NCBI GenBank assembly: GCA_051942245.1
Contig: JAVECL010000025.1
Span: 62,001-93,388 of the forward strand
Source: Trypethelium eluteriae
Taxonomy: Eukaryota
DNA length: 31,388 nt
Direction: 5' to 3'
The notes under the pieces were generated by a model. The model worked only from the letters and a program-made list of their open reading frames with translations. It did not search any database and was not told the origin of the DNA. Position numbers and translations under genes: made by a program. How positions within the stretch are numbered: position 1 is the first letter of the stretch; each line of letters opens with the position of its first letter. Below, one piece after another: positions 6,279 to 31,388 of this stretch.

Positions 6279-7493
6279 ATGGCCACATTTTCGATTGCTG
6301 CCGCCCTTCTTGGGTTGGCCTCTTCCGTCTCCGCTCACGGCCAAGTCCAGGGCATTGTCGCCAACGGCGAATTCTACGAAGGATATAGCCCCAGCTTTCA
6401 GTACTCCAACCCGCCTCCCACTGTCATTGGATGGTCCATCCCTCAAGATCTTGACAATGGGTTCGTCGCCTCTAGTGCTCTCCAGACCGACGACATCATT
6501 TGCCACGTGAATGCCACCCCGGCTAAGGGCCACGCTGTTGTTGCTGCTGGCGATGTTGTCGAGCTCCAGTGGTCTGCATGGCCTTCCTCTCACCACGGTC
6601 CTGTGATTGACTACCTCGCCAACTGCAACGGCGCTTGCGAGACTGTCGACAAGACCAAGCTTGAGTTCTTTAAGATCGATGGTGTCGGTCTTGTCAACGA
6701 CAACCCTGTGCCGGGAACCTGGGCTTCCGACCAGTTGATTGCCAACAACAACAGCTGGGTTGTCACCATTCCTAAGAGCATTGCTCCAGGCAACTACGTT
6801 CTCCGCCACGAAATCATTGCTCTTCACTCTGCTGGCTCGGCCGGTGGTGCTCAGATGTATCCTCACTGCATTAACTTGCAGATCACTGGTTCTGGCACTA
6901 CTAAGCCCACTGGTACCCTTGGTACTGCTCTCTACAAGGAGGCTGACCCAGGTATTGAAGTCAACATCTACCAGTCTCTTTCTTACGTCATCCCTGGACC
7001 TAGCCCCATCGCCGACGCTGTCTCCATGAAGCAGTCTCAGCCCAGCATCACGGCCAATGGTGTCGTTGCGACCGGCTCCGCTGCACCTGCCGCAGCCGTC
7101 GCAGCAAGCTCATCTGTTGTCAGCGTCCCCGCTGCTGCTTCCTCCAGCAGTGCCGTTGTCGCTTCCAGTGCTGCTCCCTCAACCAGCGTCGTCAGCAGCA
7201 CTGTTGCTACCAGCGCCGCCGCCAGCGCTTCCGCTCCTGCTGTCTCTGCCGCAGCGTCCTCTGCCCTCGGCTTGACCTCTGCTCTCCCATCCTCCCTCCT
7301 CACCTCTGTCCTCCCCACCGCCGTGCCCACTGGTACCGCCTCTGGCTCCGCACCCGTCCCAACCAACCCTCTCCCCGAGGGTACCACTCTCCAGGACCTC
7401 CTTGACTGGGTGTCCTACGTTTTCGCCCAGATGTTCAAGGACCTTGAGTCTCAGCAGAACGAGCAAAACCACGCTCGATCCTTCCGAAAGTAA
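6279..7493 (+). CDS. Secreted AA9 (GH61) lytic polysaccharide monooxygenase with a Ser/Ala-rich C-terminal extension
   Basis: ATG 6279 in tcaaATG context (the ORF-track GTG start at 6195 is unlikely). Signal peptide [19 protein letters not shown] ends just before His1 (HGQV, codon 6336). Also [32 protein letters not shown] and GAQMYP (Gln and axial Tyr). Intronless. Confidence 0.97.
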
Positions 7494-21985: not shown

Positions 21986-24558
21986 ATGTGGGCCCCTGAT
22001 GACGGCTCCAAAGTCACCGGTTCTGTGGCGACCGAAATCACTATGGACCCAATTATGGACGAGGAGATCCAGGTAGTGCAAAGTACAGAACTGAATGGAG
22101 ACTACACCGTGGATCCTTCCGTATTCGCTCTTGGTGCGGTCCCCGTAAACGAGTCAACGATACAGCCCCTTGTCATTGATGATTCCCTATCGCCCGTAAC
22201 AGAAAACGGGTATGTGTCACTGCAACACCTCCACAATGGCACCAATGACTCTGCAGGTGAGACTGCGAGCTCTACCTCTTCCCACCAGAGTGCGTCGGAT
22301 GCCATGGATGTGGATTCAGGCTCGGAGTCTCATGAGCCCCAACGGATGATCTCTGTAGTCATCCCCCAGATGAAGTTTCCTCCGCTACCATATGCGTCGT
22401 CACGATCGGGTCTTGTATACGATGTACGAATGAGGTTTCACGCCGAGCCCATGACGTCCCGGCAACCGGACGACATTCATCCCGAGGATCCACGAAGGAT
22501 CCATGAAATATATCTAGAGCTCTTCAACGCCAATCTTGTTCACGATGTTATGACAAATGATTCTCCGACCGACTATCAGATGCTTCGCATTAACGCTCGG
22601 GAAGCCACAAAGCAAGAGATCTTGTTGGTACACGAAAAGAAGCATTATGAGTGGGTGAAGAGACTTGTAGAGATGACGAATGAGGAGAGGGAGATCATTG
22701 CTGCGAATTCAGACTCAATCTATGCGCATCAGTTCACCTACAGATGTGCCAAATTATCTGCTGGTGGTGCCATCGAAGCCTGTAGGGCGGTGGTTGCAGG
22801 ACAAGTCAAGAATTCCATTGCCGTGATAAGACCGCCTGGTCATCACGCTGAACCATACCAGGCCGGAGGCTTCTGCTTCTTCAACAATGTCTGCATAGCA
22901 GCTAGAGTCTGCCAGAAAGACTTTCCTACGAAATGCAGAAAGGTGTTGATCCTTGACTGGGATGTGCACCATGGGAACGGTGTCCAGCGGGCATTTTACG
23001 AGGATCCGAATGTGCTATATATCTCGATTCATGTGCACCGTGGCGGCCGTTTCTACCCTTGTACTAATTACGGAGACCACAAGCATTGCGGATCCGGACC
23101 TGGCGAAGGGAAGAATGTGAACATACCATGGCCCTGTCATGGGATGAAAGATGGCGACTACCTTCTAGCATTCCAACAAATAGTAATGCCTATTGCCCAG
23201 GAATTTGGCCCTGACTTGGTGATCATCTCGGCAGGCTTCGATGCCGCTGATGGAGATGAACTTGGCCAGTGTCATGTCACACCAGCCGGGTATGCCCATA
23301 TGACGCACATGTTGATGTCTTTGGCTAAGGGAAAGGTTGCCGTGTGTCTCGAGGGTGGCTATAATCTGCGGTCCATCGCAAAATCGGCCCTTGCTGTGAC
23401 ACGTACGTTGATGGGTGAGCCGCCGGACAGGCTGTTCTCTACAGAGCCTACTGCTGCTGGCGTCGAAACCGTGCAGATGGTGATTCGTTCGCAAGCAAAG
23501 TATTGGGCATGCATGTACCCAAAGTCTGAAAGCCAGGCCGATGGGGTGTTGCAAAAAGAACTACGAGGAGAACGTTTACATGATATATACCGGGCATGGC
23601 AGAGCAAAGAATGGTGGGACAGTTTCCGGATGACCCCTCTCTTCATACATCGCGATGTATTGTCCAAATCATTTGAACGGGAAGTACTCGCTACGTAAGT
23701 CTACCCAGAAACGCGCGCAGTTTGCCTCGTGAAAAGGCTAACACTGGGCACAGCTCCAATTACAGCGAATCTCGCCCACTGCTTGTAATCTTTCATGATC
23801 CGCCAGATGCACGGGGTTTGCCACATGCTCGCACAAGTAAGCTGGAGCTCCACAACGTTTGGGTGGTGAGTAACCCGCGCAGCCTTATGCTAGCGCGTTG
23901 CTGACCGCTTTTGAAAGACTGATGTTGCCAAGTCATACGTTGAGTGGGCGGTCCAGAACGATTTTGCTGTCATTGACGTCAACTTGCCCAAGCATGTCAC
24001 TGAAGAGAATGTTAGTCTTTGCTTTCCTGCTTTTGCAATGCGTCCCTGAGGCCTCTGACAACGGAGCAGGAAGACGAAACATATGCCGACCCAGACGAGA
24101 GCAGCTCCCGCTCCAACACCACCTTCGAACTCGCTACTTACCTGTGGGAGAATTACATTGAGGTTCACGAGTCGACTCATGTCTTTCTTCTTGGTATTGG
24201 TGATGCTTATCTCGGCCTGATCAATCTGCTTAGCAACCAGGAATCTTGTACCGACCGCATCACCTTCCTCATCTCCTTCGTCGCCGAAACGCCTCTCAAT
24301 CGTATCCGGCGCCCTGCCGACGAGGACGAAGTCGCCCGCTGGTTCTACCAGCACTCTCTTATCTTCGTCGCACGGAAGCACGGGCTCTGGGATCGCGACC
24401 GCAAGCCTCGTAAGAAGTTTGGGAGACTAGTCGAAAGCGCGTACGACGACTTGAACGAGATGTTGGTTGGGCATCGAGAGCAGGTGATGCGGCTACTGGA
24501 GCAGGAGACAGAGGAGTGGCGATTGGCGCAGCCGTTGGAGAGTCAGATCGGGAGGTGA
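21986..24558 (+). CDS. hdaA: Class II histone deacetylase (HDA1/Clr3/HdaA) with a C-terminal Arb2-like domain
   Basis: Exons 21986 (or 22043)-23694, 23754-23865, 23918-24010, 24070-24558. Motifs HPEDPRRI, RPPGHHA, GFCFFNN, DWDVHHGNG, SAGFDA, LEGGY; Arb2-like LLVIFHDPP, FAVIDVNLP and LATYLWENYIE. Start codon uncertain. Confidence 0.97.
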
Positions 24559-26047
24559 GGAGGTGGACTTCCTCTATTCTTGGGAGAAACTCAAGACCGT
24601 AGTCGGGCCGTGGGTTGGGCATGCTGTAGGCATTAGCATGGGGAAACGAGCGTGCATATTGAGGGAGTCTTGAGAAATGTAGAGGGGAAGCCTTTCGGTT
24701 TGAAGCGCTAAGCTCTTGGGTTGGTATATAGGTATGTCATCGAAGATCATCATGAAATCATTTCGCGGCCGGCCGATCCGTTTGCAAGATTGCCGCGTCT
24801 ATTGTCAATATAGAGATAGCGAAAGGACAATGCTCATCATTTTTCCACGAAGTTCCTGTTCCGTCCTCTTCTAGTGCTACAGTGCAGCCTTAACCCAGAC
24901 GTGCCGAGTACTTTCATGAACCAGCATAGCTATTTACTGCAGTCGGAGCTGCCATGGCTTAACCATCTCGCGCGGACAGCTGATAAAAAGGTGCTCGTAC
25001 AAAAATCGAGCAGGCATAGGCCTTGATTCTTTCCTCCTCCAGGAGTTGATTCTATGATCTACCGTGCTTTACCAAGCAAAAATTACAAGTAAGATACCGT
25101 AGTTTTCAGACTGGGCCCCTAAGTCGGTTAAACTTATCAGTAGAGGTATGGTCTGCGGCCGCAGGCGTAGATCGTGATCGTCACCATCGTGGTGCTGGTG
25201 CTACCCCGGACCGGCAAGCTAGGGGCATAGGATAACCTCCTTACTATCGTCAAGATAGACTGAATCTTTACACCTTTCGATTACAATACGTTCGAGCCCA
25301 AAGGCCGGAGATCAACCCACTCGGCGATCCAAACGAACACTGAACACCAATACTTGGATGGCTGTAACAAGCTTCCTTGCTCTCCCTTCTTTCCAAGTCC
25401 CAGGCATTGTAATTTCAACAACGAAGTCGGCCATCAGTGCATCACACACTACTCCGTTGGCCGTGGCTCAATTGAAAAGCTTCACTAACTACCCAAGATT
25501 TGATGATATACGGGCCGGCTAGGAGGAGAAGAAATCAGTAGATTCGCACACCTAGAGGATGGAGGGAATTATGAATCAGGTCTCAGACCCTTACGAGTGT
25601 TCACGTTGAGCTCTGCTCAAAGACGCGGACAGTTGAGACGCCGTGCACAGACAATGAAGAGATAATATCGGATATTACACTGATGGGAGGATGTTAGAGT
25701 AAGCAATCGGCACTGATGCGGGATGGTGTCGTATTTGACCTCTATCGCAACTGCCTGAATTGACTCATTGCGATGGTCAAACGATGTTCACTAAAATCGA
25801 CGGCCCAAAAATGTGGCTGAAGCGTACGCAGCTTTGCATCCTAGGTAAAACCTGTGAGGTAAGCAATGCATTCCTCTCTCCATATCTCTTTGTCTCAAGT
25901 AGCAATTAAACCCTGGCTCTCGCGCGAGCATGTGATTGTTTGCTGCGCCGGAAAGAGCTAGAATCTCGACTTCATTGTTATCATCTCTTCAATCATATAG
26001 TTGCTACTCTACCTTACAATTCTGCGACAGTCTCACCATCGCACAAA

Positions 26048-28558
26048 ATGCCGGTAACCACTAGGTCTAAGAGCCACCTTTTACCTATGGCGCAAGCTGT
26101 ACGGCCGCGGCATTCACTCAAGCCATCTAAGACAATCAAACGTTTGTCCAACCCCACAAACGCTGGTGCACCTAAGCAGCGCTGTGAGCCCAAAGGGGCT
26201 CGTTGCTCCGCGCAGAAAGCACACAAGAAATCAGACACATGACGAACCTCCGATGATAAAGAATCGCCTCAAGACTCTAGGCAAGAGGAAGTATCTCAAT
26301 ATCTCATTAGACAAGAACCGCCTCAGATAGCCAGCAAGCCTCCTTCACCGGTTTTCTCCAAAAACACTGCGCAATCCTTTTGGCCTTGTCGATATTGCTC
26401 TTGCCCTGAAGGAATTTTCGAAGGCCTAATCAATAGCTGTGTTCGGTGTGGGCACGAGATGCTTCATCATCATCCAGATACTTCTCATCCTTGGAATGAT
26501 GGAGGTGATTACACCTGCGAGCGACAGGAGCTCGTTACCTCGATTCTGGACATGGCAGTACAGACCAGAGTTGTAGCTATCCGTGCGACACCTCAAGTTG
26601 GAAAGACGACTCTACTTTACCTGCTTGGCAAACACATCCTTATGAAGGAGCCGAAGCTAGAGCCGATATATCTCAATTGGAAAAATAGGGAGGAACGGGA
26701 AGGTCTGCCATATCAGCAATATCTTGAACAGGCGAAGGTCGTATGGGAAGAAAAGAATGCAAAACTTCGCTCTTGCGATCCAAACGCCCGAAGGATCTAC
26801 CTTATTGACGAAGCGCAAGACTCGTACGAGGAAGGAGAATTTTGGACAGACTTGGTCAAAAATCATAACACAAGACATCAGGACATCTTCGTACTTGTCT
26901 GTGTTTATGGTGCTCACGGCGTTTCCCATACACGCGATCCGAACATTGAATCCCAGGCGCTTCGCATGCACTCACTCCACCTCATCGAGCTGCGTCCGTC
27001 CAAGCCTGGCCACCCATGTATGCTCTTCAAGTTTGAGGAGACAGTTGTCGTAGTTGACAAATGGGCCATTGAGCACGAATTCCAGCTCGAGGACGGTGTT
27101 CATCGATACCTCCATCGTGCAACTGATGGGCACCCCGGTATGATTGGAATGCTGCTAAACCACTGTGAACAAATGTTTTACAAGGTATGCCCCCAATGGT
27201 GTATATCAAGGTGTAGCTTTTTGTTAATAATTCTCCAGCTCCATTTTCCCCGGACGTTATCACCGACTTTATGTCACAAGCTGCTGGTCCAGCACGAGAA
27301 TAATTTCGTCGATTGGCTTGTTTGTTGGGGAAGAGGAATCTGGTCACCATGGGCTGAGCAGTTTGTGCAAGAACGTCTTCGTCGCTCGCCCATGTACAGC
27401 CATCTTGGGTTTCGAGATATACAAAGTGCGCTACGCCAAGTCGCCTTGCAACCTTACGGCTTAACTCATATACGGGAAGATCTTGATGCGTTTGCATTTT
27501 GTCACAAGATGGGCTACCTACATACCGAGCAGCCGATTCTGGGGAGAGCAGGGACCATCTTTACTTTTGCATCTCCGTTGCATCGAAGGGTCGCTTATCG
27601 CCGTCTTTTTCCGGGCCGAGAGCCAGACGCTGTGCTGAAGAACCTTAGTCTCCAGCAGATTTGTGTCAACGCTGTTGCTCGATTCAGCCCAAGCACTCTC
27701 CAGAATCGTCGACATCTTCAGACTAACGGAGATTGGGGCATCCCGGAAGCTGCATTTCAGGATGAACTCTACTGCTGCCTCAACCTTGAACTCCATTATC
27801 TTCCTATTCTATCGGAATATTCTCATACCAAAGCGGGTCGCATAGATTTCTATATCTCCGATCGAAAGTGGGGGATTGAAGTGCTGCAATGTGGAAATAA
27901 AACGGAAATCGCTAAGCACACCTCCCGATTCGCGCTTGGCGGCAACTATCAAACGTGGGATATTATGGATGATTACATCATTCTCAATTTCTGCTCCAGA
28001 TCCGCGCTTTGGAAGAGCAAGGTTGAAGGTAAGCTCCCTCGCCATCCATTTTTCACTAAAGAGGTCCACGTTAATCTTCAGTACTAATTCATATACTGAG
28101 TAGACGAGAAAATCCAATCGCACGTCTTCCACGTTGTAATAGAGCCTGACGAGTCGGTTGCAGAGGTTTATACCTACGACAAACAGTTGCATAAGTCATG
28201 GTCATTAGGCGAAGGAAGACAAAGATTCAATGCAGACGACTTCGCCGATTTCATCGACCAATCATCCGACGCAGACGATGATTGTATGCCGTTGCAAGAT
28301 GAGCCAACACAGAGAGAGCGGGCGATGATAGGAGAAATAGAGAAGATGAAGCGGCAGAGGGAGCGAGAGTTGAAGGAAAGGGAGCGAGAAAGGCAGGAGA
28401 GGGAGCAAGAGATGGAGGTATTGAGGCAGGCGAAAGAGGAATGGGAGCGAGCGAAGGAGGGGACGAGGCCACAGATGGTGCGAGAGCAGAATGGAGACGA
28501 GAAATTGCAAGAGCAGGACAAGTCAAGGTCAGGAGGAGGTAAGAAGAGAAAGAGGTAA
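26048..28558 (+). CDS. Zn-finger + P-loop NTPase + PD-(D/E)xK-like nuclease + coiled-coil/NLS protein (Crinkler/RHS-effector-like core); interrupted by an in-frame TGA at 26240-26242, so possibly a pseudogene
   Basis: caaaATG at 26048 is in frame with the 26459 ORF. Cys/His cluster CRYCSC-x10-CVRCGHEMLHH; Walker A ATPQVGKTT; Walker B IYLIDEAQ; TDGHPG; nuclease-like PEAAFQDELY...SEY...GRIDFYI...WGIEVL. Introns 27185-27238 and 28029-28103. Last exon is E/R-rich and ends GGGKKRKR. Confidence 0.8.
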
Positions 28559-28982
28559 AGCAGAATAGAAAGAGCGTACAGTTGGTCTTCAGAAGTTTTC
28601 GTGCTTACAGAACTAGATCAGAATAGAATCTATTTCTTGGAGATGCCGTAGTGTTGATGTAGTCTTCTCCCAAAATTTATGTGGTGCCTATGGAGTTTTT
28701 AGAACTGATACAATTAATCAGAATCAAGACAATTATCGTTGCTCTTACAGAGATAAATCAAGAGCTGATCTAAAGTAGGTAAGTACCTTAGTAGGATAGG
28801 CAAGCGCTGTGCTCCTTCATTTTCGTATAAGGGAGGTGAGGGAGGGGTGAAGAGGACGAGTGTAAAGGATGCCCACCGCATGCATGCGCAACAACACGTG
28901 ACGAGAGTACGGACGGAACCTTAAGGTAAGGTATGGTACTCCGCAGATCATCAGGAAATTGTCCTAGCATCGAACCTCGCTA

Positions 28983-29548
28983 TTGAGCTTTGTTGTTACC
29001 ACTCCGTCCTACGCGATCACCACACCGACCAGGTGTTCTATCGTCACTGGACACGTGCGCGCACTGAAAGAACTGACAGATGAAGACCGAGACGTCGATC
29101 TGAGCTACGAAACAACCTCTCCGATTCTAGAAACCCGAAGACCTTTCCAGAACTCTTCAAGCTTTTCCCTCATCCGTATCCAGTAGCTTCCATCTTTCGT
29201 AGCACTCTCAAAACTACAGTTGCGTTCGCTATACCAGTAAAAGATTACCTCTACGCGGATTATGGACATTGACAATGTCGAGAACTTCCTTCGAATACTC
29301 TGGGAGGCTTGCGATAAGAATCAGCTGAGTGCAACATAATGACAGGCTGCATCTGCATCGGGCTGGCGGAGATTGACCGGTTGGTGGAGGCTGAATCGCG
29401 CAGCATGCAGGATATTTCAGGCAATGCGGAACATGAGTATATTTCATGCATTATGTCCGGATTAAGAAGTTACATACAGTCTTATCTTGCGTCGCACGGC
29501 GTAGGTACTGAGTATGCGGTATATGGAGAAACAATTTCTCTAGGTTAG
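28983..29548 (+). pseudogene. Possible degraded gene relic
   Basis: Consecutive short protein-like + strand frames broken by stops and frameshifts (MDIDNVENFLRILWEACDKNQLSAT*, then CICIGLAEIDRLVEAE...IMSGLRSYIQSYLASHGV). No family recognised. Confidence 0.3.
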
Positions 29549-30138
29549 AGATCTTGGCCGATCTTTCTATTCTACTCAACTCGGTGCCGATTTTTTAACT
29601 CCTTTTCAAGAACCGACCACTAAATCATTTCGTGGTATGCACCTTTCTCATGAAGGCAAGATCACATCTACAGCATCTATTCATTTTGACAAGACCCGGA
29701 TCAAGTTAGACTCCGCGCCTCAAGCCAGGCTGAGATCCTGCTTTTGTGCTCTACTTAGAGACTTTTTACGTGGGGCTATGTCCCGTCCAAGTGCTCGACC
29801 ACTAATACTACCTTTTGCGCTCCACGAGAATTGTCGCGCGTTCCTTGCGCCTGCTTCACCCTCTGCAGGAATCCGGAAATGGCAATGTTGAGCGTAGTGC
29901 AGATGTCTGCGCCGGCAGATGGGATAACGACAATGTCGTGCTTTGCTACCCTACTACGACCCTGTCAGACAAGCAGCCTTGCCTTCATGTGATGGTCTCG
30001 ACGGAGCTCTTTTCTTAGATCCTGATTAATTCTTTTTTCCTTGCCTACGGTTTTCCTCCAGCTTGTGTTTCTGCTGTCTCATGCCAACTGAAATTAAGGA
30101 TCTACTTTGACACAAAGTTGATATCTTCCTCTTTTCAG

Positions 30139-31388
30139 ATGTTTTCCTTCCTTGAAGCAGGCATTTTAATACTGCTTACTCTCGTATTGGGGTCAATGGC
30201 TCAATCAAGCACGGCCTCAAGTTCAGGTACAAGTTCAGCAACATCTCAAGCACCTCCTCAAACACACACCGTCACTGTCGGTAAAGGAACAAACTCATAC
30301 GATCCTGATACGATCCAAGCCCTTCCCGGCGATTTGATAGTATTCGAGTTCTTCCCAACAAATCATTCCGTAGTAAGAGCGTCGTATGGCTACCCGTGTG
30401 TCCCATATGAGGACACTGCTGGACCTGATGCCGCCGGATTTTTCTCAGGCCACTTCCCTTTGGAGACAATTCAGCCAAACGTAAGTCACTTGAAGAGGTC
30501 ACCTCGCGAGGGACTTTCTACTCATCCAGTATGGATCTACGACTGATAGCTTTCTTATAGCCACCAACTTGGAACCTAACGGTGAATGACACAGAACCGG
30601 TATTCTTCTATTGCTCAGCAGTTGGATCATGTATTGACTTTCAGATGGTTGGAGTGATCAATCCTGTATGGAAACCATTGCATTTCTTTCAGGACCATTC
30701 CTTTCTGACATTTGAGATTAGAATGGAACGGAATTTTTGGCAAATCAAAAGGCTGCCGCTAAAGCAGCTGACTATATGCTCGAACCAGGTCAGCCGTTCC
30801 CGGAAGAAGCAGCATCATCAATGTCTTCAATAGCCGCTACTGCAACGGCAACTGTCACCTCCGCGACCAGTGCACCTACAACTGCTGGCCCACCCTTGAC
30901 CGTAACCACCACGCACACTGGCCTCTCTAGCGGCGCCATTGCCGGCATCGTCGTCGCCGGCTTCATCGTCCTCCTCCTCGGCGCCGCGCTCTTTTTCTTC
31001 ATCGGCCGCAACTCCACCCTCCGCCAAGCCCTTGCCTTCACCAGCCACCCTTCTCCGACCGCCCGATCCTCCATGGCTCCTCCGCCCCCTCCACCGGCGA
31101 AAGACATGTCCTACCCAACCGACCACACCCTCCCCACCATCTTGCCTTACAAATCCGACCCCTGCGCCCCACATCACCGTATCCCCTCTTACGACGTACC
31201 GCCTTACTCCCTCGCAGCCAGCCCAACCCCAGACGCCGTTGCTGGCTGCGCTCCCACTGCTGAAGAGCTGAGCTCGGTTGTCGGGAGCAGCCCGCGTATG
31301 AGCCCACGGTCGTTCGGGCCTGGGCCGCGCTACACACCGGGCACGGAATACGGGAACTTCTTGGCGACTGGGGGGATGGGGGATCAGA
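30139..31388 (+). CDS. Fungal extracellular Ser/Thr-rich cupredoxin-domain protein with one TM helix; 3' end runs past the window
   Basis: Exons 30139-30480, 30561-30665, 30722 to the edge. Signal peptide; THTVTVG...PGDLIVFEFFPTNHSVV...PC...GFFSG...VNDTEPVFFYCSAVGSC...MVGVINP; S/T-rich stalk; TM LSSGAIAGIVVAGFIVLLLGAALFFFIG; Pro-rich tail. The ATG directly follows cttttcag, so an upstream exon or UTR intron is possible. Confidence 0.88.

What the first reader, a model, noticed from the sequence alone, without database searches (positions are those of the whole stretch)
26048..26470. One in-frame TGA (ACA-TGA-CGA) cuts the NTPase-nuclease off from its start codon
Seen: the track ORFs ending at 26242 and starting at 26459 are the same frame, broken only by TGA at codon 65. 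There is no in-frame ATG from 26243 to 26458, and the 26459 ATG falls inside the Cys/His cluster (CVRCGHE-M-LHH), so it is unlikely to be the original start. The rest of the frame and the splice sites look intact. Possible explanations: a recent CGA>TGA nonsense mutation disarming a toxic gene; leaky readthrough (UGA-C is the most permissive stop context) limiting the dose; sexual-stage A-to-I editing of the stop to Trp, which is known to repair premature stops in some filamentous ascomycetes, mostly at UAG; an intron skipping the stop (GTAACC at 26054 to CAG at 26326 keeps frame); or a sequencing error.
Basis: partly seen in the sequence, partly recalled or inferred. Interest (0 to 1): 0.7.

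Follow-up and report, generated by a model that had tools for sequence, protein, structure and literature searches.

The report
Recent stop allele in fungal nuclease
A gene for an ATPase-plus-DNA-cutting protein in a lichen-type fungus has an early stop codon in this genome, but a nearly identical genome has an ordinary amino-acid codon there and a full-length protein, so this is most likely an ordinary recent loss-of-function variant (or an assembly error), not RNA editing or programmed readthrough.

Summary
In detail: ATG 26048, TGA 26240-26242 (codon 65), same frame open beyond, no in-frame ATG from 26243 to 26458. The gene has three exons and 793 codons. The stop is not fixed. A public DNA run laid on 25500-28800 differs at 2 of 3301 bases, one being 26242 (T, codon TGT, Cys). 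A Viridothelium virens protein of 793 aa differs from the window's frame at the same two codons only; I count the two as one observation. The other state is thus Cys, not Arg (the proposed CGA origin) or Trp (the editing product). Of 89 other homologues, 64 start MPxxT[RK], none with Trp opposite codon 65. Related genomic loci are open without a 5' intron. At the second difference the window holds the residue usual in homologues, so it is a distinct genotype. Best reading: a very recent nonsense allele (about 0.7); rival: consensus error (about 0.2), untestable without the window's own reads. The protein is an AAA+/winged-helix/restriction-endonuclease-fold protein like Crinkler C-termini, without a Crinkler header. 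Editing, readthrough and intron skipping are unsupported. My look-ups found no relevant earlier scan note. Ordinary.

The parts
26048..27184 (+). Exon 1 (codons 1-379): basic disordered N-terminus, Cys/His cluster and AAA+-type NTPase domain; interrupted by the TGA
   Evidence: residues 1-106 have pLDDT under 50 in the model of the intact allele P0091
26048..26071 (+).
   Evidence: 64 of 89 other hits start MPxxT[RK]; ATG CCN GTA ACT also in L002 and L004
26240..26242 (+). Premature TGA at codon 65; not fixed: run X1 reads T at 26242 and P0091 has Cys65
26387..26470 (+). Cys/His cluster CxxCxC..CxxCxH....H (residues 114-141), probably metal-binding (inferred); holds M138 at 26459
   Evidence: Seven Cys/His columns invariant in 18 of 18 rows; no Pfam family hit on this part
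26552..26554 (+). M169, next in-frame ATG with G at -3 and +4; start of the public gene model P0001, which omits everything upstream
   Evidence: P0001 begins at residue 169; context ATTCTGGAC ATG G
26582..26608 (+). Walker A region RATPQVGKT (residues 179-187)
   Evidence: R179, T181, P182, G185, K186 invariant in A2; Pfam AAA_14 E 1e-4, below its curated cut-off
26807..26812 (+). Walker B acidic pair D254-E255 (YLIDEAQ)
   Evidence: Invariant in A2
27185..27238 (+). Intron 1 (54 nt, GTATGC..CAG, in frame, no stop)
   Evidence: 18-residue gap against P0091
27239..28028 (+). Exon 2: helical/winged-helix part and restriction-endonuclease-fold domain
27464..27464 (+). Second difference between the genotypes: Thr455 here, Ala in X1 and P0091; Thr is the usual residue in homologues
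   Evidence: T in 20 of 33 proteins of 480 aa or more, A in 0, gap in 9
27623..28027 (+). Restriction-endonuclease-fold domain (residues 508-642) with conserved acidic residues E555, E572, D582, E593
   Evidence: Alignment A3; model pLDDT 91.8; best matches BglII Z 7.6, rmsd 3.4, 114 aligned, and BstYI Z 7.4, rmsd 3.7, 113 aligned
28029..28103 (+). Intron 2 (75 nt, GTAAGC..TAG, branch-like ACTAAT at 28083)
   Evidence: matching gap against P0091; intron at the same place in L002
28104..28558 (+). Exon 3: last strands, acidic linker, E/R/Q-rich long helix built on degenerate 21-nt repeats (28332-28478), basic tail KKRKR (possible nuclear signal, inferred) and TAA
   Evidence: helix 712-778; family D1

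Best explanation
The TGA is a very recent nonsense allele of a single-copy gene for a Crinkler-C-terminus-like NTPase + restriction-endonuclease-fold protein in a Trypetheliaceae fungus. Shown: a near-identical genotype has a Cys codon and a 793-aa frame; the family keeps an uninterrupted exon 1. Inferred: the change is a third-position transversion in this lineage. Ribosomes starting at 26048 or 26087 stop after 64 or 51 codons, the mRNA becomes a likely target of nonsense-mediated decay (general knowledge), and the allele is a null or near-null. It survives because this gene is dispensable. The intact protein is inferred to be a nuclear, ATP-regulated DNA nuclease (basic N- and C-terminal tails, Cys/His cluster, AAA+ motor, winged helix, REase-fold domain, coiled tail).
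For:: X1 contig (depth 427.6, one piece over all 3301 bases) differs only at 26242 A>T and 27464 A>G. P0091 (V. virens, 793 aa) differs only at residue 65 (Cys) and 455 (Ala); neighbours diverge as little (PNS1 769 of 771 identical; AA9 253 of 253), so the two genomes are very close; the window's Thr455 is found in 20 of 33 homologues and Ala in 0, so the window is a separate genotype rather than a noisy copy. The closest other relative P0012 (about 82% identical over exon 1) has Tyr at this column and an open frame, which fits a pyrimidine-ending ancestral codon. L002 and L004 are open for 260 and 257 codons from the ATG; 39 of 52 non-NCBI gene calls run from MPxxT[RK] to the Cys cluster in one frame. 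No other break lies in the gene, as expected of a young allele.
Against: The reads behind the window's own assembly were not seen, so an error is not excluded. X1 and P0091 share both differences and may not be independent: only two genotypes are compared. No RNA or protein data show that the allele is null. Dispensability is inferred from patchy, partly fragmentary homologues, not measured. Downstream codons show no decay, which fits a young allele but fits an error equally well.
Confidence: 0.7

Rival explanations
1. Assembly or consensus error, or a minority base from a mixed-genotype sample: the organism has the sense codon and an intact gene.
For: The only read-derived contig found has the sense base at depth 427.6 and the tool marks it as a possible source of this DNA. 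G000 is fragmented (1369 contigs). P0001, which carries the window's Thr455 and starts at M169, is labelled MAG by its source. The rest of the frame and both introns are intact.
Against: The window also differs from X1/P0091 at 455, where it holds the residue usual in homologues (20 of 33), and from V. virens PNS1 at 2 of 771 residues. True between-genotype differences thus occur at about this rate, and short-read consensus substitution errors are usually rarer (general knowledge). The site is not in a homopolymer or repeat, and the locus is single-copy.
Confidence: 0.2
2. The stop is real but the allele still makes a shortened protein by leaky scanning or reinitiation at M138 (26459) or M169 (26552), keeping ATPase and nuclease but losing the basic N-terminus and the Cys/His cluster.
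For: Both ATGs precede Walker A; M169 has G at -3 and +4. 9 of 90 hits are annotated from the Met equivalent to M138, and P0001 from M169.
Against: Five other ATGs lie between 26048 and 26458 or overlap the stop region (26048, 26087, 26239, 26253's list, the first with A at -3), and reinitiation after 51-64 codons is weak (general knowledge). The nine short annotations may be gene-calling artefacts or other broken copies; their DNA was not seen. M138 cuts through a cluster whose Cys/His residues are invariant.
Confidence: 0.05
3. The stop is bypassed on purpose: sexual-stage A-to-I editing to a Trp codon, or UGA-C readthrough, doses a toxic protein.
For: UGA followed by C is a leaky context (general knowledge, recalled). 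The site lies in a disordered region where any residue may serve. PMC10776026 notes that edited stops often derive from non-Trp codons and that stops occur at such sites in single species of other Pezizomycotina classes (passages). A Pezizomycete has editing, so it is not confined to one class.
Against: The stop is not even shared with a near-identical genome. Trp is opposite codon 65 in 0 of 64 homologues. Fungal editing strongly prefers U at -1, hence UAG and UAA; this A follows G (PMC11156358). The passages on the 71 Fusarium cases speak of TAG; TGA and UGA occur 0 times at word start in that main text. The editing role of Ame1 is reported to have evolved in Sordariomycetes (PMC11087585). 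The 86 nt around the stop fold worse than 195 of 200 shuffles (z +1.79): no readthrough-type hairpin.
Confidence: 0.04
4. A 273-nt intron (GTAACC 26054 to CAG 26326) removes the stop in frame.
For: The length is a multiple of 3 and the ends are GT and AG.
Against: The donor is the Val-Thr codon pair of the family's conserved MPVTT start, kept in L002 and L004 whose frames are open without it. P0091 and the homologues that start MPxxT[RK] keep this stretch as protein. No [AG]CT[AG]A[CT] branch motif lies before 26326 (weak, since intron 1 also lacks a perfect match). The two real introns are 54 and 75 nt.
Confidence: 0.01

Closest known systems
Crinkler (CRN/CR) C-terminal NTPase + HTH + REase architecture (as reviewed in PMC5289972, passages; the primary paper, Zhang et al. 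2016, was not held)
   Same: P-loop NTPase followed by a winged-helix-type region and a restriction-endonuclease-fold domain; Atlas feature neighbour 'Crinkler family protein' score 0.95, PF20147 on 40% of members, mostly Mucoromycota.
   Different: No ubiquitin-like Crinkler header: no PF20147 hit in 36 members, no LxLFLAK or HVLV motif; the N-terminus is a basic disordered stretch plus a Cys/His cluster. Single copy. No sign of secretion or delivery into a host.
Bacterial AAA-ATPase + PD-(D/E)XK proteins (Pfam AAA_35 PF14516, AAA-ATPase_like PF09820, PDDEXK_3 PF13366)
   Same: Nearest Atlas clusters by features (0.94-0.95) and by structure (TM about 0.5 over about 350 residues); fold matches to RuvB, archaeal ATPases PABY2304 and SSO1545, and ORC/Cdc6.
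   Different: Eukaryotic, spliced gene with an added N-terminus and a long helical tail; the third catalytic motif reads E-V-L, not E-x-K.
Premature-stop-codon (PSC) pseudogenes repaired by sexual-stage A-to-I editing in Fusarium graminearum (PMC10776026, PMC11156358, PMC11087585)
   Same: One in-frame stop in an otherwise intact fungal gene.
   Different: Those stops are described as TAG, arose at ancestral nodes in Sordariomycetes and are often shared among species; this one is TGA, differs between two near-identical genomes, and lies in a Dothideomycete lineage.
Viridothelium virens hypothetical protein KAF2238412.1 (P0091)
   Same: Orthologue, 791 of 793 residues identical, same exon layout; V. 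virens PNS1 (KAF2238407.1) lies five accession numbers away on a contig of the same length, matching the gene order in the window.
   Different: Full length, with Cys65 and Ala455.

Membership tests
A-to-I-repaired PSC pseudogenes | Stop codon is UAG (edited A has U at -1) | tested here: not met
   Codon is TGA, the A follows G; preference from PMC11156358 and PMC10776026
A-to-I-repaired PSC pseudogenes | Stop fixed in the species, often shared with relatives, or Trp in orthologues | tested here: not met
   Sense codon in X1 and P0091; Trp in 0 of 64 homologues (rough pairwise alignment, 23 gaps)
A-to-I-repaired PSC pseudogenes | A-to-G seen in sexual-stage RNA | not testable with these tools
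   No RNA run could be laid
A-to-I-repaired PSC pseudogenes | Host has mRNA-editing machinery (Tad2-Tad3 with an editing-competent Ame1) | not tested
   G000 was not searched for Ame1; papers place the activity in Sordariomycetes and report editing in one Pezizomycete
Crinkler (CRN) effectors | C-terminal NTPase + HTH + REase module | tested here: met
   Walker A and B invariant; AAA+/winged-helix fold matches at E about 1e-7; REase fold: best Z 7.6, a middling score, but most of the 50 rows are restriction-endonuclease-fold chains
Crinkler (CRN) effectors | N-terminal ubiquitin-like header with LxLFLAK and HVLV motifs (Pfam Crinkler PF20147) | tested here: not met
   No PF20147 hit among 36 members at E 0.1; motifs absent from P0091; residues 1-106 modelled without structure
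Crinkler (CRN) effectors | Delivery into host cells and nuclear activity | not testable with these tools
   Needs experiments
Autonomous mobile element | Several copies, terminal repeats | tested here: not met
   One match in G000 by protein and by DNA (only the best candidates are scored); no long terminal direct or inverted repeat in 24400-30300
Recent nonsense allele | Sense allele in a near-identical genome, rest of gene intact | tested here: met
Recent nonsense allele | Stop base supported by the sample's own reads | not testable with these tools
   Only one run was listed, and it carries the other allele

The most novel reading that the evidence does not exclude
The gene belongs to an uncharacterised ascomycete family of header-less Crinkler-type ATPase-nucleases (MPVTTRS start, Cys/His cluster, AAA+, REase fold, coiled tail) that may act as selfish or conflict nucleases. 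The TGA would then be a selected disarmed state segregating in the species, or would switch the gene to a shorter product from M138 or M169, as the nine homologues annotated from the M138-equivalent might also do. Armed and disarmed natural alleles would offer a direct test of what the family does.
Probability: 0.08. Interest if true: 0.5.

Novelty: already known. Interest (0 to 1): 0.1.

Why it matters
As found, it matters little: single nonsense differences between close fungal genotypes, and consensus errors in fragmented assemblies, are both common. It does show that the public model starting at M169 (P0001) omits 168 conserved codons. Had editing of a UGA stop in a Dothideomycete been true, it would have extended fungal mRNA editing to a new class and a disfavoured codon; the evidence points away from that. 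The remaining value is the protein family, which has no functional name in the records returned here and carries a Crinkler-type nuclease module behind a different N-terminus.

Tried and rejected
CGA>TGA origin: rejected, the other allele is TGT and Arg is opposite codon 65 in 2 of 64 homologues. RIP as cause: the change is a transversion, and the gene's TpA/ApT (0.62) and (CpA+TpG)/(ApC+GpT) (1.38) are like the window average (0.66, 1.27). Paralogue collapse or mobile element: one copy found, no terminal repeats. Readthrough hairpin: none. Expression: no RNA holder listed; this is no evidence either way. Sequence search of solved structures with the family profile gave 1 match at E 0.91, ignored; Foldseek on the nuclease domain gave no match at E 0.001 or better. 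The metagenome scan gave 11 loci of 50 candidates, 3 of them close (L002-L004); L003 lacks the 5' end; L002 shows no neighbour shared with the window. Exact look-up of ten window ORFs found 2 in the collection, so background divergence rests on two neighbours. Earlier scan notes: one unrelated bacterial hit sharing 3 of 180 words, none by words or place. Literature: searches listed no paper on this gene or this ascomycete family; Zhang et al. 2016 is not held, so whether it already covers the family is unknown. In one search the class 'MPxxTR start' (65 of 90) wrongly included P0001; the stricter count is 64 of 89.

Full report
Observation. In the frame that begins at ATG 26048, TGA at 26240-26242 is codon 65, the frame then stays open to 28085, and no in-frame ATG lies between 26243 and 26458. 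A second in-frame ATG at 26087 also precedes the stop. Two short GT..AG introns (27185-27238 and 28029-28103) give a frame of 793 codons ending at TAA 28556-28558. Both gaps match those seen when a full-length public protein is aligned to the window.

Setting. The window is fungal. Pfam names the neighbours as SPX, NUDIX, HIG_1_N, AA9, SelO, a weak WD40-like protein, a choline transporter (PNS1), a Ras-family GTPase, COX4, GAPDH and a histone deacetylase with Arb2 domain. The nearest named records are labelled Trypethelium eluteriae and Viridothelium virens, both Trypetheliaceae in the Dothideomycetes; that these are lichen-forming fungi is recalled knowledge. The gene was found once in G000, by protein and by DNA, with no terminal repeats.

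The stop is not fixed. One public run was listed for this DNA. Its contig covers 25500-28800 in one piece at depth 427.6 and differs at 2 of 3301 bases: 26242 A>T and 27464 A>G. The first makes codon 65 TGT. Separately, the 90%-identity cluster of the best protein hit holds a 793-aa V. virens protein, P0091. It differs from the window's frame at two residues only: Cys at 65 and Ala for Thr at 455. These are the same two differences, so X1 and P0091 may not be independent and I count them as one other genotype. P0091 is the orthologue: V. virens PNS1 is five accession numbers away on a contig of the same length, as the gene order in the window predicts. PNS1 is 769 of 771 identical and AA9 253 of 253, so 2 differences in 793 residues is the local background.

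Which state is derived. The closest other relative, P0012, has Tyr at this column and an open frame. Of 89 hits other than P0001, 64 start MPxxT[RK]; opposite codon 65 they show Trp 0, Arg 2, Cys 4 times and a gap 23 times. The region is disordered (pLDDT under 50 for residues 1-106) and aligns poorly, so these counts are rough. Two metagenome loci with the 5' end, L002 and L004, are open for 260 and 257 codons from the ATG. Of 52 non-NCBI gene calls, which appear to ignore introns, 39 run from MPxxT[RK] to the Cys cluster in one frame. The stop is therefore the derived state. At residue 455 the reverse holds: the window's Thr is seen in 20 of 33 long homologues and Ala in none. So the window is a separate genotype and not a noisy copy of the V. 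virens sequence.

Allele or error. I could not see the reads behind the window's own assembly. G000 has 1369 contigs, and P0001, which carries the window's Thr455 and begins at M169, is labelled MAG. A consensus error or a mixed sample remains possible. Against it, real differences between the genotypes occur at about this rate, the site is in single-copy non-repetitive DNA, and 4.9% of possible single-base changes in this gene give a stop (352 of 7128). I put a real recent allele at about 0.75 (0.70 null, 0.05 with a shortened product) and an error at about 0.2.

Editing, readthrough, intron. PMC11156358 (passages) reports a strong preference for U at -1, hence UAG and UAA, and editing in Sordariomycetes and one Pezizomycete but not in Aspergillus nidulans or Botrytis cinerea; it does not mention Dothideomycetes. 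PMC10776026 (passages) describes 71 Fusarium pseudogenes in terms of TAG stops that arose in Sordariomycetes. It also says that such stops often derive from non-Trp codons, so the lack of Trp in homologues is not decisive alone; its supplements were not read. PMC11087585 (passages) places the editing role of Ame1 in Sordariomycetes, although orthologues are widespread; I did not search G000 for Ame1. Here the A follows G, the stop is not shared with a near-identical genome, and the 86 nt around it fold worse than 195 of 200 shuffles. The proposed intron donor is the Val-Thr codon pair of the conserved start motif, present also in L002 and L004. No RNA was available to test any of these directly.

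The protein. Seven Cys/His residues at 114-141 are invariant in 18 rows; metal binding is inferred. Walker A (RATPQVGKT) and Walker B (DE 254-255) are invariant in 36 rows. The model of P0091 (mean pLDDT 69.1) matches AAA+ proteins with winged helices: RuvB, archaeal ATPases, ORC/Cdc6 (E about 1e-7). Residues 508-642, modelled alone (pLDDT 91.8), match restriction endonucleases BglII (Z 7.6, rmsd 3.4, 114 aligned) and BstYI (Z 7.4); the scores are middling, but most of the 50 rows share that fold, and four acidic residues are conserved. The Atlas places it beside bacterial AAA_35/PD-(D/E)XK proteins and a Crinkler family cluster. The review PMC5289972 (passages) describes NTPase + HTH + REase as the commonest Crinkler C-terminus, with toxicity ascribed to the REase. 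The protein works like that module by inference, but it is not a Crinkler effector by test: no PF20147 hit in 36 members and no header motif. A nuclear, ATP-regulated nuclease is my inference from basic termini and architecture; no activity was measured.

Effect of the stop. Initiation at 26048 or 26087 gives 64 or 51 residues of disordered peptide; decay of the mRNA is expected from general knowledge. A shorter product from M138 or M169 would keep both enzyme domains, and 9 of 90 hits are annotated from the M138-equivalent, but their DNA was not seen and gene-calling may explain them.

Novelty. The feature is an ordinary one: a young nonsense allele or an assembly error. Searches listed no paper on this gene or on this ascomycete family (listings only); the primary Crinkler survey was not held and may cover it. 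Look-ups of earlier scan notes gave nothing relevant. Interest 0.1.

Noticed in passing
window 6279-7493 (+): The AA9 protein is 404 aa here, but its cluster partner P0226, on a contig of the same length as the V. virens records, is 253 aa and identical over that length. It may be a partial annotation or a truncation in the other genome.
   Followed up: partly
window 26387-26470 (+): The CxxCxC..CxxCxH....H cluster is invariant across the family and has no Pfam match; possibly an unnamed zinc-binding module.
   Followed up: partly
window 26459 (+); proteins P0005, P0006, P0008, P0027, P0036, P0037, P0043, P0046, P0072: Nine of 90 homologues are annotated from the Met inside the Cys/His cluster. 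It is unknown whether they have upstream breaks, an alternative start, or only a gene-calling artefact.
   Followed up: no
window 28332-28478 (+): Degenerate 21-nt repeats encode the E/R/Q-rich helix; tail length varies widely among homologues, with repeat expansions in P0004, P0009 and P0011.
   Followed up: no
window 27185-27238 (+): Intron 1 is in frame and has no stop, so retention would add 18 residues; the public model P0001 uses an acceptor 14 codons further on than P0091 does.
   Followed up: partly
window 24560-26047 and 28559-30100: About 1.5 kb on each side of the gene holds no ORF over 130 codons. The gene sits between a housekeeping block (COX4, GAPDH, histone deacetylase) and a gene for a probably secreted Ser/Thr-rich membrane protein from about 30139; L002 shares no neighbour with the window, so the gene may be a lineage-specific insertion.
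   Followed up: partly
L002-L004: One metagenome holds at least two different family members (L002 and L004 both have the start); L003 and L004 overlap in sequence and may be one gene.
   Followed up: no
proteins P0009, P0011, P0013, P0028, P0036: Massariosphaeria phaeospora has at least five family members, and Polyplosphaeria fusca three partial ones, while G000 has one: copy number varies strongly.
   Followed up: no
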